A DNA stretch of 64,000 bases from Vampirovibrionales bacterium (lineage in GTDB: Bacteria > Cyanobacteriota > Vampirovibrionia > Vampirovibrionales > Vampirovibrionaceae): positions 49,688-113,687 of the forward strand of contig JARXAD010000002.1 in assembly GCA_029866025.1 (NCBI GenBank), in the 5' to 3' direction. Position numbers and translations under genes: made by a program. A model generated the notes under the pieces. The model worked only from the letters and a program-made list of their open reading frames with translations. It did not search any database and was not told the DNA's origin. This document shows, piece by piece, positions 1 through 17,012 of this stretch (positions are counted from its first letter, which is position 1; the number at the start of each line of letters is the position of its first letter).

Positions 1-279
1 TTTATATCGTTCACCTTCTTTAGTGGATTCTAATAACCCCTTAAACTCCTCACTAGAAACCCATTTTCGTAATGCTGTTTCTATACCATCCCATAAGTAC
101 TCTGGGAAAAGCTGTGTAGTTATTTTTATAGAGGTTTCAATATTATCATCTCTAAAATAATCGCAAGCCGTTTTAGCAGTAAGATCAAACCCCCTTTTTA
201 CAGCCCAAGTCTTTATCTGCCCTCCTAAAAAGATTACGCTACTTGTAATGTCGACCATATCTGTCCCTGTATCGTTCAT
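1..279 (-). CDS. Hypothetical protein, 3'-truncated by the window start (N-terminus MNDTGTDMVDITSS...). It lies in the low-GC island downstream of the OLD-family gene.
   Basis: Reverse-complement of 1..279 is an open frame from ATG (279..277) to position 1 (93 codons, no stop). It was not in the ORF track because it is incomplete. GC is about 35%, like the neighbouring OLD gene. No recognisable motif (not UvrD-like). Confidence 0.4.
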   Translation of the reverse strand, partial: MNDTGTDMVDITSSVIFLGGQIKTWAVKRGFDLTAKTACDYFRDDNIETSIKITTQLFPEYLWDGIETALRKWVSSEEFKGLLESTKEGERYK

Positions 280-671
280 ATACTTAAATGGAAATCCTGA
301 AGAGTCTTGGTCGATAGAGGGTACTTATTGACTATAGGAATAATGCATAATCTATGAATAGTCTGAAAGTAGCATCAAATTTTTGAATAAAACGAGGGAT
401 CTGAGACGGAAGGGTTCGTCTCATTCTAGAGCTATTCAAGCACAGTTATACAGATGAATCATACCATAACCCTCTTGGGGGCTACTTTAAAGGGCACGAA
501 ATTGGTTGCACTAGGTTGTAAAACCATAGAGGGCAATTATGCGAAGGTCACCGATATGGCCTTTTAACAATGATCCTAATCGGTATTAATTCTTAGTGAA
601 CGCATAGGTGCACAGAAATGCCTTTAGATGGTTTATCGCTAGCTAGCAGAAGGATTCTCCTATTGAGAGCG

Positions 672-2408
672 TTAAGTATATGTGTTCGCTGTTTTAATGA
701 ATTCAACTAATTTTAGAATCTCAGCTTTAAATCTATATTTAAAGCTATCTAAAGATGGATTTTGACCAACAACGTGCATAGCAATTTTGACCTTGTCCGC
801 TGATATCTCTTTGTCAGAACGGCTAATAAGGCTAAGAGGATTCTCATAGCGTGTTATTTCTGGCAACCTTGCTGTGGGATGAACTGCTTGTATAGCACTA
901 ATTAGTGTCGCGTCAGGTAAATAATTCTCAATTTCTTTGCCCGCTGTAACCCAACAATGGCCATTGCTACTTTCTGTAAACTCATTACGAACCCGTTCCT
1001 TTGTTTGATTTATTTTCCCACCTGCTCTTTTCTTATCGCTATCAATGATGATTACCATATTTTGATTAATTTTTTTAAGCTGGATAAACTCGTCAATTTC
1101 GTGGTCACTTGCACTTAAATGACTAAGAAGTCGTCCCCCGTAAAACATAATCGAGTAATGTAGCCCTTCTTGAAAGTCAGGTGCTATTTGAGATATTGAA
1201 TAGTTTATATAAGCTCGATCTGAGGGCCCTTCGACCCAAATAATGGCATTTGATTGAAATAGGTCAGATGCAGAGACTCCAAGCTCTTTACATATCATAA
1301 GACGCCCCAAGTCATTCGGAGCATAAGAAACCTTTGTACTTTTCCCATGAAGATAAACATGAAATATAGAGACGTTTTTTTGACTAATGATATGTGACGA
1401 GTGCGTCGTTATAAAATATTGGTTTTTAGTTTTTTCATTTAAGTACGTAATAAATTTTTTTTGAAGTTCAGGGTGAAGATGGAGCTCAGGTTCTTCAATA
1501 CAAATAATTGAATCGCTTTTAACAGTGCAGGCTGCTGCCAAAATTAAGACTTGCGAAATACCTGTTCCTAAATCTGTAAGATTCATTTTTTTCTCATGCA
1601 AAGTAACGTTAATTTTGTCTCTTGTGTGTGGAATTTCAATTTTTGCTGAAGGATCCCCGGTTAAAGCTCTTAAAAAACCTAAGATGTTATCAAATCTTTG
1701 AGAAAATTCTGTTTCATGAGTATCTGGATTCTGTAATTTAGCTAGCTCGTAAATTAAACCTTTTCCGCTTAGCTCCTTTAAAAAATTTACAGGCTCGGAA
1801 TCAATCTCCCTATGTGTAGGAATAAACATTGCTTGAGGAAAGGCCTCGTTTACCTTCTGTAAGTAGGTTCTTAGTATGGACTGCACCTGAAGAGGAGGGC
1901 TAGAGTTATCTTGGCCACTAATATTATGCGCTAATGCACGTATATCTTGATTAAGTAACTCATGAACTCTAGCCCATGTTGTTTCCCCAGAACGACCATT
2001 TTTAGAGAAATCAATCCAAAAAAAGTCTTTTTCTTCAGAAATTTCAGCCATGGAATTTAAAAACGCACTATTTGTATCAGTAATACCTATTACTGGCTGA
2101 AATTTCCCCCTTAATAAATTGTTTAAATAACCGTTAAATAGAACCCCTAATGAAAAGGTTACTTGGCTGCTTGAGTCGTAAATGTGCTGCTCCACTCCCC
2201 TTCCCATTTCATTGCTATCGCATAAAAAACTTAGATCGTTTTTTAATTGTGCGTATATATATTTGAGTATATTTGACTTTCCTGAATTGTTTTTTCCTGC
2301 AAATATGTTTATTTTTGAAAAAGGTCCGATCCTTTGTAGTTCTCCAAAGCTGCGGTAATTCCATATACCTAAGCCCTCTATAAAGAGTGGAACACTATTT
2401 TCAGTCAT
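672..2408 (-). CDS. OLD-family ATP-dependent endonuclease: N-terminal ABC-type ATPase plus C-terminal Toprim domain (GajA/OLD class-like).
   Basis: 578-aa ORF. Walker A is GKNNSGKSNIL near the N-terminus. The C-terminal Toprim signatures are IIWVEGPSDRAY (conserved E) and IIIDSDKKRAGG (DxD). GC is about 33% versus about 52% for flanking genes. Confidence 0.7.
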   Translation of the reverse strand: MTENSVPLFIEGLGIWNYRSFGELQRIGPFSKINIFAGKNNSGKSNILKYIYAQLKNDLSFLCDSNEMGRGVEQHIYDSSSQVTFSLGVLFNGYLNNLLRGKFQPVIGITDTNSAFLNSMAEISEEKDFFWIDFSKNGRSGETTWARVHELLNQDIRALAHNISGQDNSSPPLQVQSILRTYLQKVNEAFPQAMFIPTHREIDSEPVNFLKELSGKGLIYELAKLQNPDTHETEFSQRFDNILGFLRALTGDPSAKIEIPHTRDKINVTLHEKKMNLTDLGTGISQVLILAAACTVKSDSIICIEEPELHLHPELQKKFITYLNEKTKNQYFITTHSSHIISQKNVSIFHVYLHGKSTKVSYAPNDLGRLMICKELGVSASDLFQSNAIIWVEGPSDRAYINYSISQIAPDFQEGLHYSIMFYGGRLLSHLSASDHEIDEFIQLKKINQNMVIIIDSDKKRAGGKINQTKERVRNEFTESSNGHCWVTAGKEIENYLPDATLISAIQAVHPTARLPEITRYENPLSLISRSDKEISADKVKIAMHVVGQNPSLDSFKYRFKAEILKLVEFIKTANTYT

Positions 2409-2535
2409 TTAAACAGACCTTAGTATCCTTACAATTCCCTGCAACCCAAAACATGTTCGACACATGACACATTACTATAAGTGCAGTAGGAAGATCTATG
2501 ATTCACCTGTATCATAGGACAGGATCTAGGGGGTG

Positions 2536-2607
2536 TGGGCCCAGATGGATTCGAACCATCAACCAAGGGATTATGAGTCCCCTGCTCCACCATTGAGCTA
2601 TAGGCCC
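2536..2607 (-). tRNA. tRNA-Met/Ile2 (anticodon CAT), elongator-type. It has a G1-C72 pair and no encoded CCA.
   Basis: Reverse-complement folds as GGGCCTA / GCTC..GAGC / GGGGA-CTCATAA-TCCCT / GATGG-TTCGAAT-CCATC / TGGGCCC-A. The T-loop GTTCGAATC is canonical. Confidence 0.85.
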
Positions 2608-2831
2608 GTGAATTGCCACTTAGTTTAACACGTACAAAGTACAACCATTCACATCATTTGTATAAATAATCTTACTGAAAGCTTATGAGTCCCCTGCTCC
2701 ACCATTGAGCTATAGGCCCGTGAACCTTGGTTCAGTTTAACACGTCCAAAACACATCGGTTCACATCGTTTGTATAAATAATTTTACAGTGAGTTTATGA
2801 GTCCCCTGCTCCACCGTTGAGCTATAGGCCC
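2608..2831 (-). repeat. Two tandem 112-bp units, each a copy of the first 37 nt of tRNA-Met (5' half up to the anticodon loop) plus a conserved ~75-bp spacer.
   Basis: ttatgagtcccctgctccaccattgagctataggccc occurs at 2571..2607 (inside the tRNA), 2683..2719 and 2795..2831 (one SNP). The 75-bp spacers 2608..2682 and 2720..2794 are about 80% identical. Confidence 0.8.
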
Positions 2832-3018
2832 TAATACATACGCTTTTAGAAATACTCTTGCAAGAAGAATAAATCAATTATAACAAAAACATTCACCGCT
2901 GCTATAAAGCGGCAGCGGCCGTACAAAGCGTTCTAGGGCGGGGTTTTTTGTGATAAGGTACTCCTTAGTCGTTTTGACGGATCTCGGTGAATACTCTAGT
3001 TTCTGAAAGTTGTTTTGA

Positions 3019-5511
<2,493 letters not shown>

Positions 5512-5561
5512 TCGCTAAAACAAAACTTTGTAACATTTTTGCAATAAATTGTTCTAATGGC

Positions 5562-5601
5562 CCCCTATAATTTGTTTATACAAGTAAATGAATTATAGGG
5601 G
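5562..5601 (+). promoter_or_regulatory. Perfect 11-bp stem-loop (CCCCTATAATT ... AATTATAGGGG, 18-nt loop) whose 3' arm contains the GGGG Shine-Dalgarno of the downstream ORF.
   Basis: The inverted repeat is read directly. GGGG lies 5 nt upstream of ATG 5607. No U-run follows, so it is not a canonical terminator for gyrB. Confidence 0.45.
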
Positions 5602-5606
5602 TGCTT

Positions 5607-6464
5607 ATGCCAATACGTCCAAAAATTATTATTGCAGATTGCTTTCAAATTAAAACAAAGGACTTAGACGGAGACGGTAAGTTCGATGTAAGCCATGGCG
5701 GCATGGTAAAAATTGCCTTTATGAAACAGCTTAAAGAAAATGGTATTGAGCCAGACCAAGTTGATATTGTTGAAATTGAAATGGACACTGATGGGGATGG
5801 CTACGCCACCTTAGAAGAGTCTGTTGCTCAACATCAAAAAATACTGGACCAGGTTAAAAAAGGAGGTGTATTTTGCGTTTCTTCCTCTATGGGCTTTGTT
5901 ACCAATAAGAAAAAGATGAAGGCCATTTCTGATTCTAAAGAAGCTCGCTATTTAATGCAGGAAGAGAATTGCTATATCGGCGAAATAGCAAGATTGTGCC
6001 CGTATTTTCAGGCTCTAGATAACGACAATCGGAAAACATGGGAAAAGCAGGTAAAAGACGTGTATACCGTTGGAAACCCAATTACAGGGGAAAAAAATCC
6101 CCGTTTACTAATGGATAACTCCTTAACCTTAACCACCACTATTGATGGTTTGGACTTTGACTACAATGGAACCACGGATGTTGTTATACCAGGGTTTTCC
6201 CCCAAAAAAACTGGAGAAAAAAACGAGCTGACTGGAAATTCTTTTGCCACACCGTTTGCTGCAGGAGATGCCGTGGCTCGCTATATACAATCTGATGGCA
6301 AAGCCAGTCCTTGGATTTGCGCAGACCCGATGGCTTCAGATTATTCTCCATGGAATATGCCCAACCGCCCGTCTTATCAGGCACAAAAGAATGCCAAGGA
6401 CACTGGAGTCCCCTTAAAAAAAGAGAAAAAGGCAGAAGAAAAGCAACGAAGAACCAGCGGATAG
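5607..6464 (+). CDS. Divergent subtilisin-like (S8) serine peptidase-like protein without signal peptide, AT-rich.
   Basis: Asp-like IIIADCF, His-like VSHGGMVKIA and Ser motif GNSFATPFAAGDAVARYI (compare subtilisin GTSMATPHVAGAAAL), in D-H-S order. The ORF track starts at GTG 5601; ATG 5607 has the better RBS. GC is about 42%. Confidence 0.4.
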   Translation: MPIRPKIIIADCFQIKTKDLDGDGKFDVSHGGMVKIAFMKQLKENGIEPDQVDIVEIEMDTDGDGYATLEESVAQHQKILDQVKKGGVFCVSSSMGFVTNKKKMKAISDSKEARYLMQEENCYIGEIARLCPYFQALDNDNRKTWEKQVKDVYTVGNPITGEKNPRLLMDNSLTLTTTIDGLDFDYNGTTDVVIPGFSPKKTGEKNELTGNSFATPFAAGDAVARYIQSDGKASPWICADPMASDYSPWNMPNRPSYQAQKNAKDTGVPLKKEKKAEEKQRRTSG

Positions 6465-6483
6465 CCTGCTTTAGAGAAAATGG

Positions 6484-8334
6484 TTACATGCTTTCTGGAG
6501 CGCTGACGCCCAGTAGCTGGAGCGCTTGAGCCAAAGTTTTTTGTACCGCCATCACCAAGGCCAAGCGGGCTTGGGTAGTTTCAGGGTCATCCGTTAACAT
6601 GCGACACACATTGTACACACTGTGAAAATTCGCCGCCAGCTCTTGGGCATACCGGGCAATCAAGTGCGCAGAACGTTGCTGTGCTGCCGAAGTCACCACC
6701 GCCTCAAAACGGTCCAACTCCAAAATAAGTTCAACAATCGCCGGTAATGCTGTTTCATCGGCGCTAAATAGCGATGCCAACAACGCCGGTGTGGGATGAC
6801 TGGACAATTGAGCCAACGCTTCTTCTGTAATAAAGGCAGGCGTGGGAGTTTCGGTGGTTTGTGTGGGAGAAACCGCGTTACGCAAAATACTGGCACACCG
6901 CGCGTGAGCATACTGCACATAAAACACAGGGTTTTCATGAGTCGCACTGGCAGCTAAGGCCACATCAAAGTCCAAGGTAGTGTCGGCGCTTTTACTAATC
7001 ATCCAAAAACGCGTAGCGTCGACACCCACTGTATCCACTACATCACTTAAGGTTAGCATCTTTCTGCGCTTACCCATGCGCTCTCGCTCGCCATCCACAA
7101 TCAGGTTCACCAGCTGGCCCAGCACAATTTCAAAGGCAGAATCTTTTTCATCACGCAAGTGGCCCAAAGCAATCATAGCTGCCCGCATGCGGGGAATATA
7201 CCCATGATGATCCGCGCCCCAAATATTAATGATGCGGTTGTATTGGGGCTGTCCGTTGTCATCTTCGCGGGTGTATTTTTGATGATGATAGGCAATATCA
7301 GCCGCCAAATAGGTAAAACTACCGTCCGACTTGACCAATACCCGATCTTTATCATCCCCAAGCTCGCTAGACTTTAGCCACAAAGCCCCATCGGCCTCAT
7401 AAGCAAACTGGGTTCCCTTCAAATGCGCCAACATATGAGACACCAAGCCACGGTCATGAAGCAGTTCTTTTTCAGAAAACCAGGCCTCAAAATTGACGTC
7501 CAGTTGTTTTAATAACTGCTGTTGGCTGGCTAACATCATTGCCTTGACATAAGGAATGAGAACGGATTCTATCCAAGCCCAATCAGCCGCGGGTAGATTT
7601 AAATGGTCAAAGTGCAAGGGTTTGTCTTCAGCCATTAAGTGGTGCCACACATCCAGTAGCGCCGCCTCGTCATCGGATGAAAGCTGGCCAACAAAGGCAT
7701 TAGCAGCCTCTATTACATACTCGCCAGGATACGGGTACTCCATAGCCAAAGGCGTTTCAGGTAATTTCCCAGCAGCAATCAAAGTCTCGCGGGTACGAAA
7801 CAAGACGGAAACACCGATTTTTCGCATCTGTTCGCCAGCATCGTTAATGTAAAACTCTGGCGTAACAGTGGCACCGCAATGGCGTAAAATCCGTACTAAC
7901 GAATCACCCAAGGCCGCCCAGCGCCCATGCCCCACGTGCAACGGCCCCGTAGGGTTGGCAGAAACGTACTCCAGCAAAATAGAGTTGTCTTGCAGCGTGC
8001 TATTTTTACCCGGGGCTGCCTCCATCAAGCGGTGGCACAGGGCACTGGCCAACAATCCATCGGAAAAACGAACATTCACAAATCCCTGAACCGTATTCAA
8101 TGTAATATCCGGATGGGACTTCAAAGCATCGGCTACTGTATTGGCAATCACAGGGGGGGCTTGTTTCAGGTCGCGCGACCAAGGTGACACATTAACAGCA
8201 TAATGGCCAAACTGACGATCTCGGGGACGTTCAATAGCGACGGAAGTCATTGCTTCCAATGGTAGCCCACAAAAGAAATTAGACTGCTGTTGTGTGGCCG
8301 CTATTAAGGCGTCCTTAACCATTTGCTGCAACAT
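6484..8334 (-). CDS. argS: Arginine--tRNA ligase.
   Basis: Class I HIGH motif NPTGPLHVGHGR, a DALK-like anticodon-binding C-terminus, and length 616 aa. Confidence 0.9.
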   Translation of the reverse strand: MLQQMVKDALIAATQQQSNFFCGLPLEAMTSVAIERPRDRQFGHYAVNVSPWSRDLKQAPPVIANTVADALKSHPDITLNTVQGFVNVRFSDGLLASALCHRLMEAAPGKNSTLQDNSILLEYVSANPTGPLHVGHGRWAALGDSLVRILRHCGATVTPEFYINDAGEQMRKIGVSVLFRTRETLIAAGKLPETPLAMEYPYPGEYVIEAANAFVGQLSSDDEAALLDVWHHLMAEDKPLHFDHLNLPAADWAWIESVLIPYVKAMMLASQQQLLKQLDVNFEAWFSEKELLHDRGLVSHMLAHLKGTQFAYEADGALWLKSSELGDDKDRVLVKSDGSFTYLAADIAYHHQKYTREDDNGQPQYNRIINIWGADHHGYIPRMRAAMIALGHLRDEKDSAFEIVLGQLVNLIVDGERERMGKRRKMLTLSDVVDTVGVDATRFWMISKSADTTLDFDVALAASATHENPVFYVQYAHARCASILRNAVSPTQTTETPTPAFITEEALAQLSSHPTPALLASLFSADETALPAIVELILELDRFEAVVTSAAQQRSAHLIARYAQELAANFHSVYNVCRMLTDDPETTQARLALVMAVQKTLAQALQLLGVSAPESM

Positions 8335-8418
8335 ACGCTAGATGCCTTTATGAGAAACGCATCTAAGCCTACCACAGCCACCGACATCATATCATCCGAC
8401 AACAGGAGCGTGGCGAGG

Positions 8419-8862
8419 CTATACGGGAGAGAGCTCGCGAACGGAACGTAGGCGGTTTAAATTACGGGTGCGTTCAAACATAGGCTGGCGACCCGCGTCC
8501 GAATAATCTCCGTCAGCTACATCGTCCGTGGTGGGGCGTAGCTTTTCCAAGCAGGCGTACAAGGCTGCTACATCATCACAAAAATACTGATGAATCACCT
8601 TCTGCAAGGCCAAGGCACCTGCATCGCCACGTTGCATCACCGCTTGGTATAAAAACCGCTTACCGTCTTTATGGCGAACAGCCAAGCCTTTGTCTACCAA
8701 TCTATCCAGTACCGTTTTAACGGTGGTATAGGCCCATTTTTTAGCTTGAGAATTAATACGGGTTTGAATATCGGCGACAAAAATAGTCTCCAAACCATCT
8801 TGTTCCAAATCCCACAAGGCATTCAAAATAATATTTTCCAGATCGCCTTGCCGTAAGTCCAT
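8419..8862 (-). CDS. BlaI/MecI/CopY-family winged-helix transcriptional repressor.
   Basis: The N-terminal segment LENIILNALWDLEQDG...TVKTVLDRLVDKGL matches the penicillinase-repressor family pattern. No adjacent BlaR1-like sensor. Confidence 0.55.
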   Translation of the reverse strand: MDLRQGDLENIILNALWDLEQDGLETIFVADIQTRINSQAKKWAYTTVKTVLDRLVDKGLAVRHKDGKRFLYQAVMQRGDAGALALQKVIHQYFCDDVAALYACLEKLRPTTDDVADGDYSDAGRQPMFERTRNLNRLRSVRELSPV

Positions 8863-9248
8863 TCGTGTGTTCCCTATACCTTAACGCACTATGATTTAAA
8901 CCCAACAAGAAAAGAACTATTACCTCACTGCACCGGCTTAGGATAATGCCTGCATCATACTAAGAGAGGGTATTGTGAGACTTCCTGTTCCTTCCCGTTG
9001 CTAAAAACAATACCCAACAGTCCTTTTAAAAAAGGCTCACTGTCTTTGCCTCCCCGCTGGTTGCACAACCCTGCAAAACGGCCAAAAGCCTAAGCGCTAG
9101 AGGAGAGCATTGAGTATAGGAAACATTGATGGGGAAGATCAAGTCAGCGTAACGATTCGTGGAGTAACATTTTCTAACGCACACCGGAGTGTTTTACTTG
9201 ACGTAAGGGCCTAGTGTTGGTTTTAAGTTTGAAAACCATACTAAAACC

Positions 9249-9935
9249 CTAGCACACCAAGGCTTGAGGTACCTTCATTTCTGGTACCGTGGTGGGAACC
9301 ACTAAGTGGGCCTCGGTTTTAGCCAAAATTTCTTCCACGCTCACACCAGGGGCTCTTTCCAGTAAGCGATACCCAGGTACACTGCCATCGGTAATGCGCT
9401 CCAATAGTGCTAAATCCGTAACAACCTTGGTGACACAGCCTACGCCAGTAAGGGGTAAGGTGCATTGCTTTAAAATCTTCGATTGGCCGGCTTTATTGGC
9501 ATGTTGCATGGCCACAATAATACGTTGGGCGCTGGCCACCAAGTCCATGGCGCCCCCCATCCCCTTTACCAACTTTCCCGGCACCATCCAACTGGCAATA
9601 TTGCCCGCCTCATCCACTTCAAAGGCACCTAGCACCGTTAAATCCACGTGGCCGCCGCGTATCATGGCAAAACTATCAGACGAAGAAAAAAAGGCGGCCC
9701 CCGCCACGGTAGTAACGGTTTGCTTGCCAGCATTAATGAGATCCGGGTCCACGTCGGCATCGCTGGGAAATTCCCCCATGCCCCAAATGCCATTTTCACT
9801 TTGCAACATCACTTGCATGCCTGTGGGCACGTGATTGGCCACCAAGGTGGGAATGCCAATCCCCAAGTTGACGCTCATGCCGTCGGTGAGTTCTTGGGCA
9901 ATGCGGTGGGCTATTTGGTCGCGGGTGAGGGTCAT
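9249..9935 (-). CDS. scoB: 3-oxoacid CoA-transferase subunit B.
   Basis: [11 protein letters not shown], catalytic-Glu region and GGAMDLV motifs. 228 aa, typical of ScoB/AtoA. Confidence 0.85.
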
Positions 9936-10065
9936 GGGCGTGGATTCCTACCAAGGCATCAAGGGGTCGTTGCCACGTATGTTACATCAACGTAACAATG
10001 AAGATCAAAAATGAGAGCTGCTAGCAACAAAATTAATTCACACAACTTGATACAGTTGATAAAAG

Positions 10066-11037
10066 ATGTGTTTCCCTACATTTAGGATCCGTATTATGCG
10101 TATTTCTCATATGGCTACAGCTTTTTCGCCCAACTTTGGACAGCGACCAAAAACGGCCTCAAATATAGTCAATTCTACAGATCAACTATCCATTCGTTTT
10201 GGCTCTATACCTTTATCCACCTATATTAATCAGGTGCATGTTTCCATTGTAGAGGGTGATATTTCGCAGCAAAAAGTAGACGCTTGTGTGGTTCCTCAGC
10301 TACTCACCGGATTAAGGGGGGGGGGAGTCTCAGACGCGCTTTACTCTTCGGGAGCAAGAAATGGGGTAAAAGCGTATCAAAATAAAATTGAGACAGGCCA
10401 TACGATGCAATTGGGTGAAGCACTTTGTTGTGAGTCAGGTGGAGGTAATTCAAAGTACTTGATTCATATTGCCACAGGGAAAGATTATTCGGGCTCTGTC
10501 GAAGATGCTGCTTTAGCGAAGCTAAAAGCCCCTACTATTTATAAAAATCCTAATCAAACAGTGGAAAAATATGCTGATATTGCGTTTATTGCCGTTAAGG
10601 AAGGCGTGAAAAACGCACTTGTTCAGGCAGAACGTAAGGGTTTAAGCTCTGTGGCCATTCCCCATATGGCTATCTTCAATTCATTGTTAGAAGTTCAGGC
10701 AGCCGAAGCCACGTTAGGAGGCATTGAAGAATACTCCAAAACAAGTAAAAACCCAGTAACAGTGAAAATTATTGCCTATCAAGATAAAGATAACGCTACC
10801 AAAAATGCTTACCGTGATGTAATACAGACTAAATCGTATGAGAATCCCTTTTGCCCCGTGGGCCTTACCGTTGGAAATTCCTTTGCGACAATGGAGCATA
10901 GGGTTAGAGGCGATAAATTTTTACCACCCATCGCTAAAGCCTTTAAAAAATATTATGCTACAAACGAGGGCTCTACCGATCGCAAATTAAAGGAGCTTAC
11001 CTATCAAACCTTATCTCTGGAAAAGAAAATTGGCTAA
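10066..11037 (+). CDS. Macro (ADP-ribose-binding / deacetylase) domain protein with an extra C-terminal region.
   Basis: VDACVVPQ and GGGVSDALY..G reflect macrodomain-like glycine-rich loops. GC is about 42%. A G10 homopolymer sits inside the coding region. The C-terminus contains GNSFAT, shared with two other ORFs. Confidence 0.5.
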   Translation: MCFPTFRIRIMRISHMATAFSPNFGQRPKTASNIVNSTDQLSIRFGSIPLSTYINQVHVSIVEGDISQQKVDACVVPQLLTGLRGGGVSDALYSSGARNGVKAYQNKIETGHTMQLGEALCCESGGGNSKYLIHIATGKDYSGSVEDAALAKLKAPTIYKNPNQTVEKYADIAFIAVKEGVKNALVQAERKGLSSVAIPHMAIFNSLLEVQAAEATLGGIEEYSKTSKNPVTVKIIAYQDKDNATKNAYRDVIQTKSYENPFCPVGLTVGNSFATMEHRVRGDKFLPPIAKAFKKYYATNEGSTDRKLKELTYQTLSLEKKIG

Positions 11038-12842
11038 ATCATCGGTTTAATGCCCATATAATCCATACTATCAGTAACAATTTGTTTAAAAATAGGCCCC
11101 GCCACCGTACTCCCCCACGATTCTGCCATGCGGGGGGTATCCACCAGCACAAAAATAAGCACTTCCGGCTTCTCTGCAGGGTAAAACCCCACAAAAGACG
11201 TAAACAAATCCGAGCTGTAGCCTTTACCGCTATTACTGGGTTTGCGAGAGGTGCCCGTTTTACCGGCAATGCGAATTCCCGGCACCCGCACCGAGGATAC
11301 TTTGGGGCGATCAATGGCTTTGGCCAAAAGCTGAGTGAGGTCGGTGGCGGTTTTTTCAGTTAGTACACGGCGACGAATGGGTTCTCTGCTGCCCATACTG
11401 GCTACGTGGGGCTGTATCCACACGCCCCCATTGGCAATGGCTGCTACTGCTGCTGCCATTTGAAGGGGCGTGGCGGCCAATCCATAACCGTAACCCAAGC
11501 TAGCCTGGGTGGACTGGGTCCACGTATCATAATGAGGCAACAACCCAGCGGATTCTCCTGGTAAATCAAGCCCCGTAGGCTGGCCAAAGCCAAAGCGCTT
11601 CAACAGTTCGTACTGAAGAGGCTTCGGCGTCATCATAGAAATTTTGGCGCTGGCAATGTTGCTGCTGTGCTCTAGCAGGTAGGTCAGGTCAATCATGCCA
11701 GGATGAGGGCGCTTGTGGTAATCGTAGTTTTGGATGGTCCATTTTTCAATCACCATGCGGCCCGTATCCAGTATTTTGCTATCGGGTTGTATCGCACCAC
11801 TTTCCAAGCCATTGGCCAAGGTTAAAATTTTCATGGTGCTACCCGGCGGGTACACATCACTCACCGCCCAGTTTTTTAGATTTTCATAGCCATAACGGTA
11901 ATAATGTTCTGGCGTATACGTCGGCGTTACGGCAAAGGCTAAAATATCGCCCGATTTTGGCTGTAACATTACCACGGCACCACGCTTGGCTTTGGATTTA
12001 GCGAGCCCTTCGGTTAATGCTTTTTCCGCAATAAACTGCAAGCGGGCATCAATGGTTAGGGTCACGTCATCGGACTTGGGCAAGCTCACTACTTCTGGGG
12101 CACGAAACGCTTCAATGTTAAGCAACTGGCCATGACCATCCAACATGGGCAAGCGGCCCAATAAAGGAGCCTTTTTTAAAGTTTCCCGTTGCGCATACTC
12201 AACCCCACTACTGACCCCCGTATCATCATTCACATACCCCAGAACATGGGCCGCCAACTGACCTTGAGGGTATTGGCGCACTGTTTTTTTAGGAAAATCC
12301 AAGCCACCAATGGGCTTACGCTCACCGTCCACTTCAATTTTTAATGCACGTAGGGCTTGTACCGTTTCTTTTTCCAAGTTACTGGCCAAGCGAATAGTGC
12401 TAAGCGGCTTACTTAAATCTTCTGACAACCGAGCCGCTGGCATGTGGAGAACAGGGGCAATAGCGGTGGCAATTTGCTCTGGAGATGCCTTGCCAAAGTA
12501 CTCTGGGTGGGCAAAGGCATCGTATAAAATTTGGTCTTGCGCCATTACCATGCCATGACGATCGAGAATGGTGCCACGGTGGTATAGGCTTGTGGCATGG
12601 CTTCGAGACTGCTTTGCTTTTTGCTGAAGCTGGCCGCCCGTAATGAGCTGTAAATAAACCAGTCGCCCCATTAAAACCAGCAACACGACGATGGCAACCA
12701 CACCCACTTGCTGAAGGCGACGCGTTAGCACATGGTGGGGCTTGGCAGCCAGCGGTGTTCCTGTAGGTCTAGCAGGAACGGGGCGAGGCCTAGATGCAGC
12801 CGGTGGAAGAGCCATCGTTAATACCCCGTTACAATAGGCCAA
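11034..12842 (-). CDS. Class B penicillin-binding protein (PBP2/FtsI-type peptidoglycan D,D-transpeptidase).
   Basis: N-terminal TM helix and dimerisation domain. The transpeptidase motifs STMK, SSN and KTGT are all present. Confidence 0.85.
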   Translation of the reverse strand: MAYCNGVLTMALPPAASRPRPVPARPTGTPLAAKPHHVLTRRLQQVGVVAIVVLLVLMGRLVYLQLITGGQLQQKAKQSRSHATSLYHRGTILDRHGMVMAQDQILYDAFAHPEYFGKASPEQIATAIAPVLHMPAARLSEDLSKPLSTIRLASNLEKETVQALRALKIEVDGERKPIGGLDFPKKTVRQYPQGQLAAHVLGYVNDDTGVSSGVEYAQRETLKKAPLLGRLPMLDGHGQLLNIEAFRAPEVVSLPKSDDVTLTIDARLQFIAEKALTEGLAKSKAKRGAVVMLQPKSGDILAFAVTPTYTPEHYYRYGYENLKNWAVSDVYPPGSTMKILTLANGLESGAIQPDSKILDTGRMVIEKWTIQNYDYHKRPHPGMIDLTYLLEHSSNIASAKISMMTPKPLQYELLKRFGFGQPTGLDLPGESAGLLPHYDTWTQSTQASLGYGYGLAATPLQMAAAVAAIANGGVWIQPHVASMGSREPIRRRVLTEKTATDLTQLLAKAIDRPKVSSVRVPGIRIAGKTGTSRKPSNSGKGYSSDLFTSFVGFYPAEKPEVLIFVLVDTPRMAESWGSTVAGPIFKQIVTDSMDYMGIKPMI

Positions 12843-13342
12843 CGCCTCTGAGCATCCTGGCCATTGGTATTTCTTAAAGCCGAGCCAATGGCCACAGTCT
12901 GGGGCAAGGGCTGACCCATGGGTGCCATTAAGGTTAGGGTTTCTTTAGGAGCGCTCAACCATTGAGAATCTTGAGCATTTTTCATAATGCCCGTAAAGGA
13001 TTGTAATCGGTTGAGGTGAATGGATCGTGCTGTATTCGACTCTTGAATCGCTTGGGTTTCTTGAATCAATTGTTGCATGGTAAATTTTTGGTGCACTACC
13101 CAACCGTACGTCGCAATGGTTATTAAAAATCCTGCTGTTACCGCACTCAGTAAAAACCGATTCCATTTTTCTAAAAAAGCCTGATGCCCTATCTGCCGAA
13201 CCAATTGCCGAAAAATCTGCTGTAAAAAAAGGCCCAGCCACCAGGCAGAAGTCTTTGGCAAAGGCTTTTTCACCACGGCTGGGTCATTAAAATCAGTGGG
13301 GGTTGCGCTCGTCATGCCCCTATTATAGGTCGGCTTAGGCAT
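12818..13342 (-). CDS. Single-pass membrane protein with coiled-coil, overlapping the PBP gene start (FtsL/MreC-like partner).
   Basis: 174 aa with one TM (FLLSAVTAGFLITIATYGWVV) followed by a Q-rich helix. It overlaps the PBP start by 25 nt, suggesting an operon. Confidence 0.35.
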   Translation of the reverse strand: MPKPTYNRGMTSATPTDFNDPAVVKKPLPKTSAWWLGLFLQQIFRQLVRQIGHQAFLEKWNRFLLSAVTAGFLITIATYGWVVHQKFTMQQLIQETQAIQESNTARSIHLNRLQSFTGIMKNAQDSQWLSAPKETLTLMAPMGQPLPQTVAIGSALRNTNGQDAQRRWPIVTGY

Positions 13343-13934
13343 TCAACCAAGCAGCCATTACTTCCTTCGCCGATCCGTAACTGACTTCTTTTCTTCGAAT
13401 CACGGGTGGCTAACCCCTCAAGGCCCTTCCTCTGGTTGGTGGAGAACGGCCATTGGGTTTTGTCCTCTGGCCAGAGGAGACCCTTCACCTCCAGTGCACA
13501 ATTTAATAAAGCCAAAAATCTCTTTATTGATAAGGGTTTTTAGCTTTATTATTTTATCTAATTTTGCGTATTAGGAGCTACAACGACCAATGGAAGTTGG
13601 CGTATTAGGGGTAAATACCCACAGGTTTTACTCCGATACCCTCATCACAAGGAACACAGCAAAGTAGGTTTAAAAGAAACCGAAACAAGCGGTGTTCCAC
13701 CCCTTCCAGGAAGGGGACACTTTGATAAAAGCATTCTTTGGACTTGCTTTATGGCAAACCCAAATGAATTCATTCATCCAAGGCTCCTTTCCCGGAAAAA
13801 TGAGTAGGAACAACATATTACACATAACCCTTAGGCTACAGGGCCTATTTGGGTCGTGGTTTTGCCCTAAACAAAACCCCGGCCACAAGTGGGTGGATGC
13901 CTGATGCCTATCGATTGAAAGGAGTCCTTCGACT

Positions 13935-14774
13935 ATGCCACTCGTCATTAATACCAACTCTTCATCCATTAACGCACAGCGTAATTTAGGCGTTAACAGC
14001 ACCATGCTAGCCCGCAGCATTGAGCGCTTATCGTCAGGGTACCGCATTAACCGAGCTGGCGATGATGCCGCCGGTTTGCAGATATCAGAAAACCTTCGTG
14101 CTCAGATTCGAGGCTCTCAGAAAGCCTTGGATAACGTGCAGGACGGGATGAACGTACTTAACATTGCTGATGGTGGACTGCAAGCCATTACCGACAACTT
14201 GCAACGGATGCGTGAACTTGTGGTCCAAGCGGGTAACGATACCAACTCAACCGCGTCTCGTACCGCTATTAAAGCGGAAATTGATCAACTCGTCTTGGAA
14301 ATTACCCGTGTGAGTGACTCCACTCGATTTAACGGGGTGGGCTTGTTAGACGGCACCACTGCTACCATTAACTTGCAGGTGGGTGCCAACGCCGTGGCTG
14401 CCAACGATGTAATTGCTGTGGCTGCCTTTGGTGACATTGACTCAACCGCATTGGGCACCACCGCCGCAGCAGTTTTGGTGGCAACCAACGCCAACGCATT
14501 AACGTCGTTGGGCCTAATTGATACGGCTATTGGAACCGTCAACACCCGTCGATCCACGATTGGTTCTATCTATAACCGATTGGAGAAAGCGGCGACTAAC
14601 CTCTCCATGACGGTAGAAAACACCCAAGCTGCCGAATCTCGTATTCGCAACGTGGATGTGGCTGCAGAAAGTGCCGAGCTCTCTCGTTTCCAAATCTTGC
14701 AGCAATCGGCCACGGCCATGTTGGCACAAGCCAATACCATGCCTCAAATTGCCCTCAAGCTACTGGGAGGTTAA
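13935..14774 (+). CDS. fliC: Flagellin (short, 279 aa).
   Basis: N-terminus MPLVINTNSSSINAQRNLGVN...LSSGYRINRAGDDAAGLQISE. C-terminal D0 helix ELSRFQILQQSATAMLAQANTMPQIALKLLGG. An AAGGAG RBS lies 8 nt upstream. Confidence 0.9.
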   Translation: MPLVINTNSSSINAQRNLGVNSTMLARSIERLSSGYRINRAGDDAAGLQISENLRAQIRGSQKALDNVQDGMNVLNIADGGLQAITDNLQRMRELVVQAGNDTNSTASRTAIKAEIDQLVLEITRVSDSTRFNGVGLLDGTTATINLQVGANAVAANDVIAVAAFGDIDSTALGTTAAAVLVATNANALTSLGLIDTAIGTVNTRRSTIGSIYNRLEKAATNLSMTVENTQAAESRIRNVDVAAESAELSRFQILQQSATAMLAQANTMPQIALKLLGG

Positions 14775-14903
14775 TTCCTGTAGCACGAGCGACTGTCTTT
14801 TTCATTTTCCCCGCTCATTTTTCCAAACGGGGCTGGCGCTCACCGCGCTGGCCCCTTTTTCTACGGGCAACGCCCGTTTTAAAATTTTCATAATGTTGGC
14901 TGC

Positions 14904-15548
14904 TCAATTAACAGAATCTCTATCAGAGCACTCTTGCAAATCGGCTATTTGCTGCTGAAGCACGGCAATGGTTTCACTGAGGGAATCCACCGAGGGCTCT
15001 GATGCGTCTACTGTCCGCTCGCCACCAATGCTCACTACTTTGCCTGGAATTCCTACCACCGTAGCCTCCGGTGGTATATCACTCAGCACCACAGAACTAG
15101 CCCCCACCACCGAATCATGGCCAATAGTGATATTACCCAACACTTTGGCCCCGCTACCAATCACCACCCGGTTTTGCAAGGTAGGATGCCGCTTGGCGCC
15201 TTTATCTTTGCCGGTACCACCCAAGGTAACGCCCTGAAACAAGGTCACATCGTCGCCAATGACGGTGGTTTCACCAATCACCACACCCATGCCATGATCA
15301 ATAAACAGACGTTTACCCAGTGTGGCACCGGGATGAATCTCAATCCCCGTCCAAAAGCGGTTCCACTGAGAGAGAATGCGAGCCGGCAGCCGCAGTTGCT
15401 TTTTCCACAAGGCGTTTGCTAGGCGATGCCCCCATGCAGCATGAAGTCCGGGGTAACACAGCACCACCTCGAAGCGAGATTTTGCCGCAGGGTCTCGCTG
15501 GAGGATGGTGCGAATGTCGTCTCGCAGGCGGCAAATAATAGGGAACAT
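14904..15548 (-). CDS. cysE: Serine O-acetyltransferase.
   Basis: N-terminal SAT helix domain and hexapeptide repeats [44 protein letters not shown]. Confidence 0.85.
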
Positions 15549-15554
15549 ATCAGG

Positions 15555-16544
15555 TTACAGTAAGGCTTTTAAGGCCTCATCCAATTCGGCGTGCTTAAAC
15601 TGGTAGCCGGTTTCCTGCAAACGCACGGGGCGTACCTTGGTGCTGGCTAAAAACAAGGCATTGGCCATCTCCCCCACCGGTGACAGTCGCAACGCCAAGG
15701 CAGGAGCCGCAATGCTGTTAGCCAAACCGGCCAAAGGCTTAAACAAAAAGGCCCGTTTGCTTAAGGCGCGGGTAAACACCTTGTTGGTAACGGGGTTGGG
15801 CGCCACCACGTTAATGGGCCCCTTAAGGCTAGCCGTGTTAAGGGTGTGAATAAAGGCCCCCACCACATCATCCAGGCTTACCCAGCTCATAAACTGTTTT
15901 CCATCACCAAAGGGGCCAGCGGCACCCAGCATAAAGGCGGGTAACATGGTTTTTAAGGCACCGCCATCGGGGCTTAACACAATGCCCAAGCGCATATTGG
16001 CCACCCTTATACCCGCAGCTTTGGCAGGCAAGGCGGCTTCTTCCCACGCTTGGCAGGTGGCGGCTAAAAAATCGGGGCCCCATTGAGGATCGCACAAGAA
16101 AAAAGGCTTATCGCGAGGTTGGCGATGAATGGCATGGCCCGGGTCGGCGGTTTCCGATAGTTCCGTATCGCCACGGTGGCCGTAATACCCAATGGCGCTG
16201 GCGCTAATAAAGCTGTGGGGCTTGTGTTCTAGCCCTGCTAAGGCGTTGGCCAGTACCAAGGTGCCTTGCACGCGGCTGTTTTTAATGGCGGCTTTTTTGG
16301 CGCTGCTCCAGCCCAAGCCCACAATGGGCTCTCCGGCTAGGTGAATGACGGCATCCACGTGGGCGGCTTCGAGGGCTTCGGTATCAATGAGGCCTTTGGC
16401 GGGGTTCCAACGAATCTCGTTAGCCCCGACCGTTTGGCCCGCTTTGGGGCGCACCAATTTAACAATGTCGTGGCCTTGGGCCGTTAGGGCTTGGCACAAG
16501 GCATTGCCCACCAAACCGTTGGCACCACTGATTAAGACTTTCAT
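15555..16544 (-). CDS. TIGR01777/YfcH-family NAD-dependent epimerase (DUF1731 C-terminus).
   Basis: MKVLISGANGLVGNAL Rossmann start at ATG 16544; the track ORF extends to 16607. The C-terminal domain is typical of the family. Confidence 0.7.
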   Translation of the reverse strand: MKVLISGANGLVGNALCQALTAQGHDIVKLVRPKAGQTVGANEIRWNPAKGLIDTEALEAAHVDAVIHLAGEPIVGLGWSSAKKAAIKNSRVQGTLVLANALAGLEHKPHSFISASAIGYYGHRGDTELSETADPGHAIHRQPRDKPFFLCDPQWGPDFLAATCQAWEEAALPAKAAGIRVANMRLGIVLSPDGGALKTMLPAFMLGAAGPFGDGKQFMSWVSLDDVVGAFIHTLNTASLKGPINVVAPNPVTNKVFTRALSKRAFLFKPLAGLANSIAAPALALRLSPVGEMANALFLASTKVRPVRLQETGYQFKHAELDEALKALL

Positions 16545-16656
16545 TGCAGGAGATTCCTTATTTGACCAATGCAGGCAATTAACCGCATTGTAACTCAACC
16601 CCCGCATTGGGATAAGGGTTGTGTTTCTGCAAGGTAGTATCTAATTTTCAAGCCAT

Positions 16657-16839
16657 TTACTTAAGCTTTCTCGCAATCTCCTCGGCAACATCACTAGCCC
16701 AAGGATACCTGTCATAATTAATTTTATAGGGAATCTCTAGTGATTTACCATCATGGACAGTAAGCTGATTTTGAGTAAGATCGCCTTCGACAGCGCATCG
16801 TGTTGCTTTACGAAGGGCAACTACAGCCCTATTCATCAT
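16657..16839 (-). CDS. Small hypothetical protein (60 aa), AT-rich.
   Basis: ORF only. Preceded by a 170-bp AT-rich gap containing the direct repeat gtgaccgagtgaccgagt. Confidence 0.25.
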   Translation of the reverse strand: MMNRAVVALRKATRCAVEGDLTQNQLTVHDGKSLEIPYKINYDRYPWASDVAEEIARKLK

Positions 16840-17012
16840 TTCCCGAGAGGGGGTTGCTGTAGTAAATTTAACAATACTTGAAAAAGTGACCGAGTGACCG
16901 AGTATACATAGGGTTTTTTACCTTATAGGCTAACAATAATAAAAAAACTAAAGGCCAACGCCCCAACCAAGGGGATAAAACACCTGAAAAACCACCATTG
17001 CCTTTTTGGGTC

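What the first reader, a model, noticed from the sequence alone, without database searches (positions are those of the whole stretch)
1..2535. Low-GC island with an OLD/GajA-like ATPase-Toprim nuclease abutting the 3' end of tRNA-Met; partner genes run off the window
Positions 1..2410 are about 34% GC against about 52% for gyrB and argS. The island starts 128 bp from the 3' (discriminator) end of tRNA-Met, the classic landing site for integrative elements and defence islands. It encodes a 578-aa ABC-ATPase + Toprim protein (Walker A GKNNSGKSNIL; Toprim E and DxD). That places it in the OLD family, which includes Gabija GajA, class 1/2 OLD and PARIS AriA/AriB-like systems. A 390-bp noncoding gap and a second AT-rich ORF of unknown type follow on the same strand and continue beyond position 1. 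The downstream ORF is not UvrD/GajB-like, so this is either a standalone class-1 OLD or an OLD nuclease paired with an uncharacterised partner.
Basis: partly seen in the sequence, partly recalled or inferred. Interest (0 to 1): 0.7.

Follow-up and report, generated by a model that had tools for sequence, protein, structure and literature searches.

The report
Stand-alone OLD-type nuclease beside tRNA-Met
An AT-rich, horizontally acquired gene next to a tRNA-Met gene in a Vampirovibrionales genome encodes a single-gene OLD-family ATPase-nuclease, probably an anti-phage defence enzyme; it belongs to a large, untested branch of a known family and is not a new kind of system.

Summary
ORF 672..2408 (-) encodes a 578-aa ABC-ATPase plus OLD-type Toprim protein. 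It starts 126 nt after the 3' end of tRNA-Met (2535..2607, -). It lies in the lowest-GC stretch of the window: 36.5%, not 34%, against 50%.

The protein is intact and keeps every invariant catalytic residue of its family. That family has at least 2,889 clusters at 50% identity, members of about 580 aa, and occurs in many phyla.

In 80 genome loci no neighbouring gene is conserved. The gene is on average 12.5 GC points below its flanks, and the dip covers only the gene plus 0.5-1 kb on each side. By context it is therefore a single-gene (Class 1-type) OLD. It is not Gabija, a retron effector or PARIS. Its sequence is far from P2 Old, TsOLD and YbjD.

The downstream open frame (279..1) has no detectable homologue anywhere, so a partner gene is not supported.

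The tRNA-integrated island idea stays open. The visible 2.5 kb holds no integrase and no att repeat, and the source contig could not be extended. However, three relatives sit in precisely bounded 5-6.5 kb tRNA islands with an integrase.

Verdict: a new member of a known kind, of modest interest.

The parts
672..2408 (-). Gene for a 578-aa OLD-family protein: N-terminal ABC ATPase with a helical insertion (about residues 1-370) and a C-terminal OLD-type Toprim region (about residues 385-578)
2274..2297 (-). Walker A / P-loop codons (G38-K-N-N-S-G-K44-S45)
   Evidence: G38, N40, N41, G43, K44 and S45 are invariant in alignment A1.
1470..1502 (-). Walker B / D-loop block C303-I-E-E-P-E-L-H-L-H312-P313. 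It has a glutamate in place of the Walker B aspartate and a histidine seven residues later, as in TsOLD E276/H283.
   Evidence: C303, E305, E306, P307, E308, H312 and P313 are invariant. The TsOLD residues are from PMC7049728. This block is the only part that aligns with P2 Old (hhalign 97% probability).
1218..1232 (-). Toprim glutamate motif E393-G-P-S-D397 (an ExxxD spacing, as in TsOLD E377/D381)
   Evidence: W391-V-E-G-P-S-D-R398 is invariant. GajA HMMs align across it.
1035..1043 (-). Toprim DxD motif D456-S-D458
   Evidence: Invariant in A1. Codons checked against the sequence.
2409..2534 (-). 126-nt spacer between the tRNA 3' end and the OLD start codon. It contains a possible ribosome-binding site (TAAGG, 11 nt before the ATG).
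   Evidence: Read directly from the sequence. GC 40.5%. No promoter on the gene's strand (-) is called there by the consensus scan.
2535..2607 (-). tRNA-Met(CAT) gene, intact. It has a G1-C72 pair and its anticodon-stem base pair next to the loop is A31-U39, so it is not a canonical initiator tRNA.
   Evidence: ARAGORN. Rfam RF00005 71.8 bits. Stem features read from the sequence.
2608..2836 (-). Two extra copies of the tRNA's 5' half (positions 1-38, at 2683..2719 and 2795..2831). Each is followed by a 75-nt spacer, and the period is 112 nt.
   Evidence: TRF: period 112, 2.3 copies, 86% matches. The repeat finder families D1 and D2. Three matches to the 37-nt 5' half against 0 expected.
280..671 (.). 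392-nt stretch after the OLD stop codon with no ORF of 40 aa or more. GC 39.5%. No RNA family and no terminator detected.
1..279 (-). N-terminal 93 codons of an open frame that runs off the window. No detectable homologue; probably a real gene, but weakly supported.
   Evidence: Translation. The stretch is stop-free for 108 codons; 3% of shuffles reach that length. GC by codon position is 0.41/0.40/0.30, close to the OLD gene's 0.44/0.35/0.29. No hit in the 5.8-billion-protein search, none in Pfam, NCBIfam or PADLOC, only insignificant PHROG matches (E 0.06 and 0.25), and none in the 120 loci.

Best explanation
The gene is a horizontally acquired, stand-alone OLD-family nuclease that acts without a dedicated partner. 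By gene context it is Class 1.

Shown:
- An intact ABC-ATPase head with an inserted helical domain.
- An OLD-type Toprim domain carrying the full set of family-invariant residues: the Walker A lysine, the Walker-B glutamate and D-loop histidine, the H-loop histidine, the ExxxD and DxD metal ligands, and conserved K470, R472 and E494.
- A foreign, AT-rich composition that is typical of this family in every host examined.
- No conserved neighbouring gene across the family.

Inferred from the characterised family members P2 Old, TsOLD, VcOLD and GajA:
- The protein dimerises through the inserted domain.
- A phage-derived cue changes its nucleotide state.
- The Toprim site then cuts nucleic acid by two-metal catalysis, blocking phage replication or killing the infected cell.

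I consider DNA nicking or degradation the more likely chemistry, because the C-terminal region resembles GajA and BpOLD most closely. Cleavage of tRNA, as shown for P2 Old, is the alternative.

How it reached this site is unresolved. The most likely route is as cargo of a small tRNA-integrating element of the kind seen in three relatives, whose integrase either lies beyond position 1 or has been lost.
For: Architecture:
- Pfam AAA_15 and AAA_21.
- GajA, AriA and AriAB HMMs span residues 300-508, which include both Toprim motifs.
- AlphaFold model with pLDDT 81.6.
- The best Foldseek hits are full-length OLD nucleases: retron Eco8 OLD at 1.6e-15 and GajA at 6e-13.

Integrity: the window protein carries every invariant column of the 35-sequence alignment.

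Stand-alone status:
- No neighbour cluster occurs in more than 4 of 80 loci.
- No Pfam or PADLOC family is found in more than 2 of the 123 immediate neighbours.
- The downstream frame is unique to this genome.

Foreign origin:
- 36.5% GC against 50% for the window.
- In 78 related loci the gene is on average 12.5 GC points below its flanks; 74 of 78 are more than 3 points lower.
- The dip covers only the gene plus 0.5-1 kb on each side.
- The homologue in Vampirovibrio chlorellavorus (L063) is only 41% identical and lies at a different locus with no tRNA nearby.
- The closest relative's gyrB region (L085, GyrB 86% identical) has neither the gene nor the tRNA-Met.

Vehicles:
- Three relatives lie in 5.2-6.5 kb tRNA islands with an integrase and exact att repeats.
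- 9 of 82 loci have an integrase-like ORF within 10 kb.
- About 25 full-length members are found among 2.9 million IMG/VR viral contigs.

Class definitions and the activities of characterised members come from PMC10568477, PMC12392090, PMC7049728, PMC12445682 and PMC13261556.
Against: - No member of this clade has been tested, so the defence role rests on family membership, patchy distribution and composition alone.
- Immediate neighbours in other genomes are mostly housekeeping genes rather than defence genes, so there is no guilt by association.
- Pfam's OLD-like_TOPRIM model scores below its threshold (14.1 against 23.2 bits). The C-terminal region alone finds no solved structure by sequence.
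- The assignment of the second-metal ligands was not checked by superposition.
- The C-terminal region (about 194 aa) is closer in length to a Class 2 region than to TsOLD's 156 aa.
- The DNA to the left of position 1 is unknown. A partner gene there cannot be excluded for this particular locus.
Confidence: 0.65

Rival explanations
1. Two-gene system: the OLD nuclease works together with the unique downstream gene (279..1 and beyond), forming an undescribed OLD-plus-partner defence pair.
For: The two are on the same strand with similar AT-rich composition and similar codon-position GC. The frame is stop-free for 108 codons (3% of shuffles reach that length). Several OLD classes do use partners (PMC10568477).
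Against: A 392-nt gap separates the genes. The fragment has no homologue in the 120 related loci or in the 5.8-billion-protein search, whereas the OLD clade has thousands of members. No neighbour is conserved anywhere in the family.
Confidence: 0.1
2. The gene is cargo of an intact integrative island in tRNA-Met that extends left of the window, with an integrase, an attR copy of the tRNA 3' half and perhaps further defence genes. This concerns how the gene arrived and is compatible with the best explanation of its function.
For: The gene starts 126 nt after the tRNA 3' end, in the tRNA's orientation. Low GC continues to position 1. L010, L023 and L069 show this architecture: an integrase and att repeats of 49-175 nt that begin at the anticodon loop. 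The locus lies at a synteny break relative to the closest genome.
Against: In all three precedents the integrase lies directly next to the intact tRNA; here the OLD gene does. No copy of the tRNA 3' end occurs in 1..2534. In most of the family the GC dip ends within 1 kb of the gene, and 73 of 82 loci have no integrase within 10 kb.
Confidence: 0.35
3. It is a Gabija, retron or PARIS component whose partner lies off-window or has been lost.
For: The best PADLOC hits are GajA models (1.6e-25), with AriA and AriAB at 1e-23. The best NCBIfam hit is the retron Eco8 effector. The top Foldseek hits are Eco8 OLD and GajA.
Against: All these matches are partial and far below the curated cut-offs: Eco8 67 against 250 bits, PtuA 52 against 500 bits. 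The gene immediately downstream is not a UvrD-like helicase. Upstream lie a tRNA and gyrB, with no reverse transcriptase or retron RNA. No UvrD, reverse-transcriptase or AriB-type neighbour recurs in 80 loci.
Confidence: 0.04
4. It has a housekeeping or genome-maintenance role rather than a defence role, like RecF/SMC-type ATPases or the archaeal OLD-family protein Cran1.
Against: Distribution is patchy, and the closest homologue is only 42% identical. The gene is absent from the closest relative's locus. It has a strong and consistent foreign GC signature in 74 of 78 hosts. It occurs on integrative islands, plasmids and predicted proviruses. RecF scores 21.5 bits against a cut-off of 172.
Confidence: 0.05

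Closest known systems
Class 1 OLD family nucleases (P2 Old, Thermus scotoductus OLD, Vibrio cholerae OLD, E. coli YbjD/OldB)
   Same: A single gene without a conserved partner. Length within the 500-600 aa range. An N-terminal ABC ATPase with an inserted helical domain, plus a C-terminal Toprim domain. A Walker-B glutamate with a histidine seven residues later, an H-loop histidine, and ExxxD and DxD motifs as in TsOLD.
   Different: Sequence similarity is minimal. hhalign to P2 Old covers only 71 columns, around the Walker B block. The match to YbjD has 22% probability. TsOLD matches the family profile only in the ATPase (2.4e-8). The C-terminal region is about 40 aa longer than TsOLD's. The clade is nearly absent from sequenced phages: 1 weak hit in 50,697 records.
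Gabija GajA (Class 2 OLD)
   Different: There is no GajB/UvrD-like helicase downstream, either here or in any consistent way across 80 loci. Matches are partial (87.6 bits at best).
Retron Eco8 OLD effector (Class 3) and PARIS AriA/AriB (Class 4)
   Same: The same ATPase-Toprim architecture. The Eco8 OLD nuclease is the top Foldseek hit. AriA and AriAB HMMs match at 1e-23.
   Different: No reverse transcriptase or ncRNA is adjacent. NF038234 scores 67 bits against a cut-off of 250. The protein is not split into ATPase and Toprim genes. Pfam gives no DUF4435 match.
Small tRNA-integrating genomic islands with a tyrosine integrase
   Same: The gene is adjacent to the 3' end of a tRNA gene and has atypical composition. 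Three homologues (L010, L023, L069) are cargo of such islands.
   Different: Here there is no integrase between the tRNA and the cargo gene, and no att repeat in the visible part.

Membership tests
OLD family (ATPase-Toprim nucleases) | N-terminal ABC-type ATPase with a Walker A lysine | tested here: met
OLD family (ATPase-Toprim nucleases) | OLD-type Walker B / D-loop (glutamate, then a histidine seven residues later) and an H-loop histidine | tested here: met
   E305/E306, H312 and H336 are invariant. The spacing matches TsOLD E276/H283/H310 as described in PMC7049728.
OLD family (ATPase-Toprim nucleases) | C-terminal Toprim domain with a conserved glutamate and a DxD motif | tested here: met
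OLD family (ATPase-Toprim nucleases) | Second metal site and a basic residue (TsOLD D381, S478, E480, R487) | tested here: inconclusive
   D397 has the right spacing from E393. E492, E494, K470 and R472 are conserved. Their equivalence was not checked by structural superposition.
OLD family (ATPase-Toprim nucleases) | Metal-dependent nuclease activity and ATPase activity | not testable with these tools
   Requires purified protein.
Class 1 OLD | Single isolated gene with no conserved neighbour | tested here: met
   Across 80 loci the largest neighbour cluster within 4 genes on either side spans 4 loci. No Pfam or PADLOC family occurs in more than 2 of the 123 immediate neighbours. In the window the flanks are a tRNA and a gene with no detectable homologue.
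Class 1 OLD | Length 500-600 aa, the cut-off used by Patel and Seed | tested here: met
   578 aa. The cut-off is quoted in PMC12392090.
Class 1 OLD | C-terminal region lacks the extra helical domain of Class 2 | tested here: inconclusive
Gabija (Class 2 OLD, GajA+GajB) | [quoted passage not shown] | tested here: not met
   The downstream frame has no Walker A and no helicase match. No helicase is conserved in 80 loci.
Retron type I-B (Class 3 OLD) | Adjacent reverse transcriptase and msr/msd RNA | tested here: not met
   Upstream lie the tRNA-Met and gyrB. Rfam finds only the tRNA in 1..3100. NF038234 scores 67 against 250 bits. The sequence to the left of position 1 is unseen.
PARIS (Class 4, AriA/AriB) | Separate ATPase and DUF4435-Toprim genes, or their fusion | tested here: not met
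   One polypeptide. Only partial AriA and AriAB HMM matches at the same level as GajA. No DUF4435 match in Pfam.
tRNA-integrated genomic island | Tyrosine integrase gene next to the target tRNA | tested here: not met
   No such ORF in 1..2534. Beyond position 1 this cannot be tested.
tRNA-integrated genomic island | Direct repeat of the tRNA 3' part at the distal end | tested here: inconclusive
   None in the visible 2.5 kb, nor elsewhere in the window, at up to 3 mismatches in 24 nt. A distal end, if there is one, lies off-window.
tRNA-integrated genomic island | Atypical composition, and absence from the same site in close relatives | tested here: inconclusive
   The composition criterion is met. 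The closest genome (L085) lacks the gene near gyrB, but its gene order differs, so no true empty site was seen.

The most novel reading that the evidence does not exclude
The roughly 580-aa AT-rich clade is a distinct, functionally separate class of stand-alone OLD nucleases, with at least 2,889 clusters at 50% identity across many phyla. It has its own trigger and target. Current defence-finder models do not capture it: PADLOC, the only defence library tested here, gave only partial matches. On this reading the array of tRNA-Met 5' halves next to the gene is not a coincidence. It would be either a record of repeated anticodon-loop recombination by the elements that carry this gene, or a functional link to tRNA targeting of the kind shown for P2 Old.
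Probability: 0.07. Interest if true: 0.65.

Novelty: new member of a known kind. Interest (0 to 1): 0.3.

Why it matters
Single-gene (Class 1) OLD nucleases are the least understood branch of a major anti-phage family. Only P2 Old, VcOLD and YbjD have phenotypes, and their activities differ: tRNA cleavage for P2 Old, DNA nicking for VcOLD, and an effect that does not need the Toprim domain for YbjD.

This locus is one representative of a very large, widespread and experimentally untouched clade. Public records label its members only 'AAA family ATPase', and none of the curated models tried here matches them over their full length.

The family-wide pattern is the useful part of the result. The gene is always markedly AT-rich relative to its host. 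It is usually a lone gene among housekeeping genes, and occasionally the cargo of 5-6 kb tRNA islands. This gives a clear target for cloning and phage-challenge tests.

The window itself adds no new principle.

Tried and rejected
(1) Extending the contig to the left. All attempts failed.
- Exact-protein look-ups of the OLD protein and of GyrB found nothing on record.
- The genome collection held no 100% match.
- Two metagenome scans, one with the first 61 bases of the window and one with the whole tRNA, found nothing.

(2) A conserved partner gene. Rejected by neighbour clustering and by the Pfam and PADLOC census.

(3) The downstream frame as a known protein. No hits in any library or in the protein database.

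(4) att sites inside the visible region.
- There is no copy of the tRNA 3' end.
- A 21-nt, 81% match at 753-773 lies inside the coding sequence and is taken as chance.

(5) Terminal inverted repeats flanking the gene.
- A 16-nt pair, 94% complementary, lies at 448-463 and 2497-2512.
- It scores only marginally above shuffles (13 against a shuffle maximum of 12), and no comparable feature recurs across 72 loci. It is taken as probably chance.

(6) tRNA adjacency as a family trait. About 6 of 82 loci have a tRNA within 2 kb, close to my rough background estimate of 5-7% (not computed).

(7) The tRNA 5'-half array as an intron, a structured RNA, or decayed whole-tRNA copies.
- No Rfam hit.
- Fold z-score of -1.26.
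- The spacers are not similar to the tRNA 3' half or to either flank.

(8) Direct sequence relatedness of the C-terminal region to solved Toprim structures. None by phmmer. The assignment rests on HMMs, motifs and the predicted fold.
Full report
**What is in the sequence**

On the minus strand the left end of the window reads, from right to left:
- gyrB, which is on the plus strand at 3019..5511.
- An intergenic region that holds a repeat array.
- tRNA-Met(CAT) at 2535..2607 (Rfam 71.8 bits).
- A 126-nt spacer.
- A 578-codon ORF at 2408..672.
- A 392-nt stretch with no ORF of 40 aa or more.
- An open frame of 93 codons from an ATG at 279, which runs off the window.

GC is 36.5% for 1..2410, 35.8% for the ORF, 51.1% for gyrB and 50.4% for the rest of the window. 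Positions 1..2400 are the lowest-GC 2.4-kb stretch in the window. The mean over all such stretches is 50.0% with sd 2.8%.

**The protein**

- Pfam finds AAA_15 (1.5e-23) and AAA_21 over residues 10-341. It gives only a sub-threshold OLD-like_TOPRIM match.
- PADLOC GajA, AriA, AriAB and ATPase-Toprim models match at 1e-25 to 1e-21. Their aligned stretches run from residue 300 to 469-508, so they cover both Toprim motifs.
- No NCBIfam equivalog comes near its cut-off: retron Eco8 effector 67 against 250 bits, PtuA 52 against 500, RecF 21.5 against 172.
- An AlphaFold model built on a 35-sequence alignment has mean pLDDT 81.6.
- The best Foldseek matches are full-length OLD nucleases, namely retron Eco8 OLD and GajA.
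- The C-terminal region alone finds nothing in the PDB by sequence. The Toprim call therefore rests on the HMM alignments, the motifs and the predicted fold.

In the family alignment the following residues are invariant and all are present in the window protein:
- G38, K44 and S45 (Walker A).
- R200, at the position where many Class 1 OLDs have an arginine in the Q-loop.
- E305, E306, H312 and H336.
- E393 and D397.
- D456 and D458.
- K470, R472 and E494.

The E-x6-H, ExxxD and DxD spacings match the catalytic residues mapped in Thermus scotoductus OLD (PMC7049728). The gene looks functional.

**The family**

The nearest homologue other than the source genome's own record is 42% identical. The source is an NCBI Vampirovibrionales MAG, contig 486,615 bp (P0001). 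A profile search of 1.84 billion cluster representatives finds 2,889 clusters at E <= 1e-30. The best hits are collinear proteins of 560-630 aa, and the window protein is its own 50% representative.

Members occur in Proteobacteria, Actinobacteria, Planctomycetes, Nitrospira, Bacteroidetes, Cyanobium, Vampirovibrio and other groups. They are almost absent from 50,697 sequenced phage genomes, which give one weak partial hit. They are rare on plasmids, with 10 records. About 25 full-length copies are present among 2.9 million IMG/VR contigs.

Relations to the characterised Class 1 proteins are remote. hhalign to P2 Old covers only the Walker B block. The YbjD alignment has 22% probability. TsOLD matches the profile only in the ATPase.

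**Context in other genomes**

I called ORFs in 80 genome loci and clustered all neighbours within four genes of the OLD-like gene. The largest cluster spans four loci. A Pfam and PADLOC census of the 123 immediate neighbours shows no family in more than two of them. Most are ordinary housekeeping genes, such as tRNA synthetases, Hsp70, PolA, DnaB, MutS and GlnA. Only a handful are defence-related. There is no recurrent UvrD-like helicase, reverse transcriptase or DUF4435 gene.

The published definitions are as follows (PMC10568477, PMC12392090):
- Class 1: an isolated single gene.
- Class 2: paired with GajB.
- Class 3: part of a retron.
- Class 4: PARIS.

By these definitions the clade is Class 1 by context.

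A striking regularity emerged. In 78 loci the gene is on average 12.5 GC points below its flanks, and 74 of 78 are lower by more than 3 points. The dip covers only the gene and 0.5-1 kb on each side. The window's 14-point drop is therefore the family norm and does not by itself indicate a large island.

**The island question**

Within 1..2534 there is no integrase and no copy of the tRNA 3' end. I could not obtain the sequence to the left of the window.

The closest available genome (L085, GyrB 86% identical) has neither the OLD gene nor tRNA-Met next to gyrB. Its argS block is inverted relative to the window, so the locus lies at a synteny break and no clean empty site can be shown.

Against this, the family does include clear tRNA-island cargo:
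- L010: a 6.5-kb island in tRNA-Lys, bounded by a 96-nt repeat.
- L023: a 5.56-kb island in tRNA-Phe, bounded by a 49-nt repeat.
- L069: a 5.2-kb island in tRNA-Arg, bounded by a repeat of about 175 nt.

L010 and L023 have a Pfam-confirmed tyrosine integrase. L069's integrase was identified by the iterative HMM search. In each island the integrase lies next to the intact tRNA, and the identity block begins at the anticodon loop.

Nine of 82 loci have an integrase-like ORF within 10 kb. In the window the OLD gene, not an integrase, abuts the tRNA. If this was once such an island, either its integrase has been lost or the layout is different. I put the chance of an intact island extending to the left at about one in three.

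**The downstream frame**

It is stop-free for 108 codons; 3% of shuffles reach that length. Its codon-position GC resembles that of the OLD gene, so it is probably a gene. It has no homologue in the 5.8-billion-protein search, in any profile library or in the 120 fetched loci. A clade-wide partner it is not.

**Mechanism**

Shown: an intact ATPase-Toprim enzyme with complete catalytic motifs, foreign composition and no conserved partner.

Inferred from characterised OLD proteins: dimerisation through the inserted helical domain, a nucleotide-dependent switch, and two-metal cleavage by the Toprim site after a phage cue. The outcome would be a block to phage replication, as with VcOLD (a DNA nickase), or death of the infected cell, as with P2 Old (which cuts the anticodon arm of tRNA; PMC12445682).

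The C-terminal region is closest to the GajA and BpOLD type, so I favour DNA as the substrate. This step is unsupported by any direct evidence.

**An unreported feature**

Upstream of the intact tRNA-Met lie two further copies of its 5' half, positions 1-38. One is identical and the other has one mismatch. Each is followed by a 75-nt spacer; the two spacers are 87% alike, and the period is exactly 112 nt. Identity ends precisely at the 3' edge of the anticodon loop.

The spacers resemble neither the tRNA 3' half nor either flank. There is no Rfam match or unusual fold. The array is absent from all fetched loci.

The array lies on the side of the tRNA away from the OLD gene, and it duplicates the opposite half from the one that normal att sites duplicate. 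The most economical reading is a scar of site-specific recombination in the anticodon loop, later amplified by unequal crossing-over. This is a guess.

**Verdict**

The 'partner genes' and 'integrative island' parts are respectively unsupported and untestable here.

The gene is a new member of a known kind. The clade it belongs to is large and uncharacterised, which gives the finding modest value as a lead for experiments.

Noticed in passing
window 2571..2836 (- strand): Tandem array of the tRNA-Met 5' half (positions 1-38). There are three copies with a period of 112 nt, separated by two 75-nt spacers that are 87% alike. Identity stops exactly at the 3' edge of the anticodon loop. Unexplained; possibly a scar of anticodon-loop site-specific recombination.
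   Followed up: partly
window 3019..17291 compared with L085 1..12499: In the closest available genome (GyrB 86% identical) the argS-PBP-flagellin block lies upstream of gyrB in direct orientation. In the window it lies downstream and inverted. L085 has tRNA-Ser directly after gyrB, and no tRNA-Met or OLD gene nearby. gyrB therefore sits between rearrangement breakpoints.
   Followed up: partly
window 5601..6464 (+): A 287-aa ORF in a 39% GC patch between gyrB and argS. It has no significant match in Pfam, PADLOC or PHROGs, and tblastx finds no counterpart in L085.
   Followed up: partly
window 10066..11037 (+): A 323-aa ORF with a weak Macro-domain match (8e-07) in a 41% GC patch. It fills a stretch of about 1.1 kb between the CoA-transferase and penicillin-binding-protein genes, which are adjacent in L085. 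This is a second small AT-rich insertion. No PADLOC match.
   Followed up: partly
78 related loci (L001-L082): Across many phyla the OLD-like gene is on average 12.5 GC points below its host flanks, and the dip is confined to the gene plus 0.5-1 kb on each side. The family is consistently AT-rich whatever the host.
   Followed up: yes
L010 6195..12828; L023 9738..15377; L069 8274..13661: Three precisely delimited 5.2-6.5 kb islands in tRNA-Lys, tRNA-Phe and tRNA-Arg. Each has a tyrosine integrase next to the tRNA, att repeats that start at the anticodon loop, and the OLD-like gene as cargo. L010 and L023 also share an unannotated ORF of about 450 aa.
   Followed up: partly
window 448..463 and 2497..2512: A 16-nt inverted repeat, 94% complementary, brackets the OLD gene. 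It scores only marginally above shuffles and has no equivalent in other loci. Probably chance.
   Followed up: yes
window 3038..3048 (+) and 47866..47877 (+): Homopolymer runs of 11 and 12 C. The first lies inside the first dozen codons of gyrB, where it encodes a proline run. The NCBI protein record starts 4 codons later than the longest ORF. These are possible sites of slippage or assembly error.
   Followed up: no
L063 (Vampirovibrio chlorellavorus contig 16), 9983..11743: Another member of the Vampirovibrionales carries a homologue that is only 41% identical, at an unrelated locus with no tRNA within 10 kb (34.5% GC against 55.3% in the flanks). This points to independent acquisitions within the order.
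   Followed up: partly
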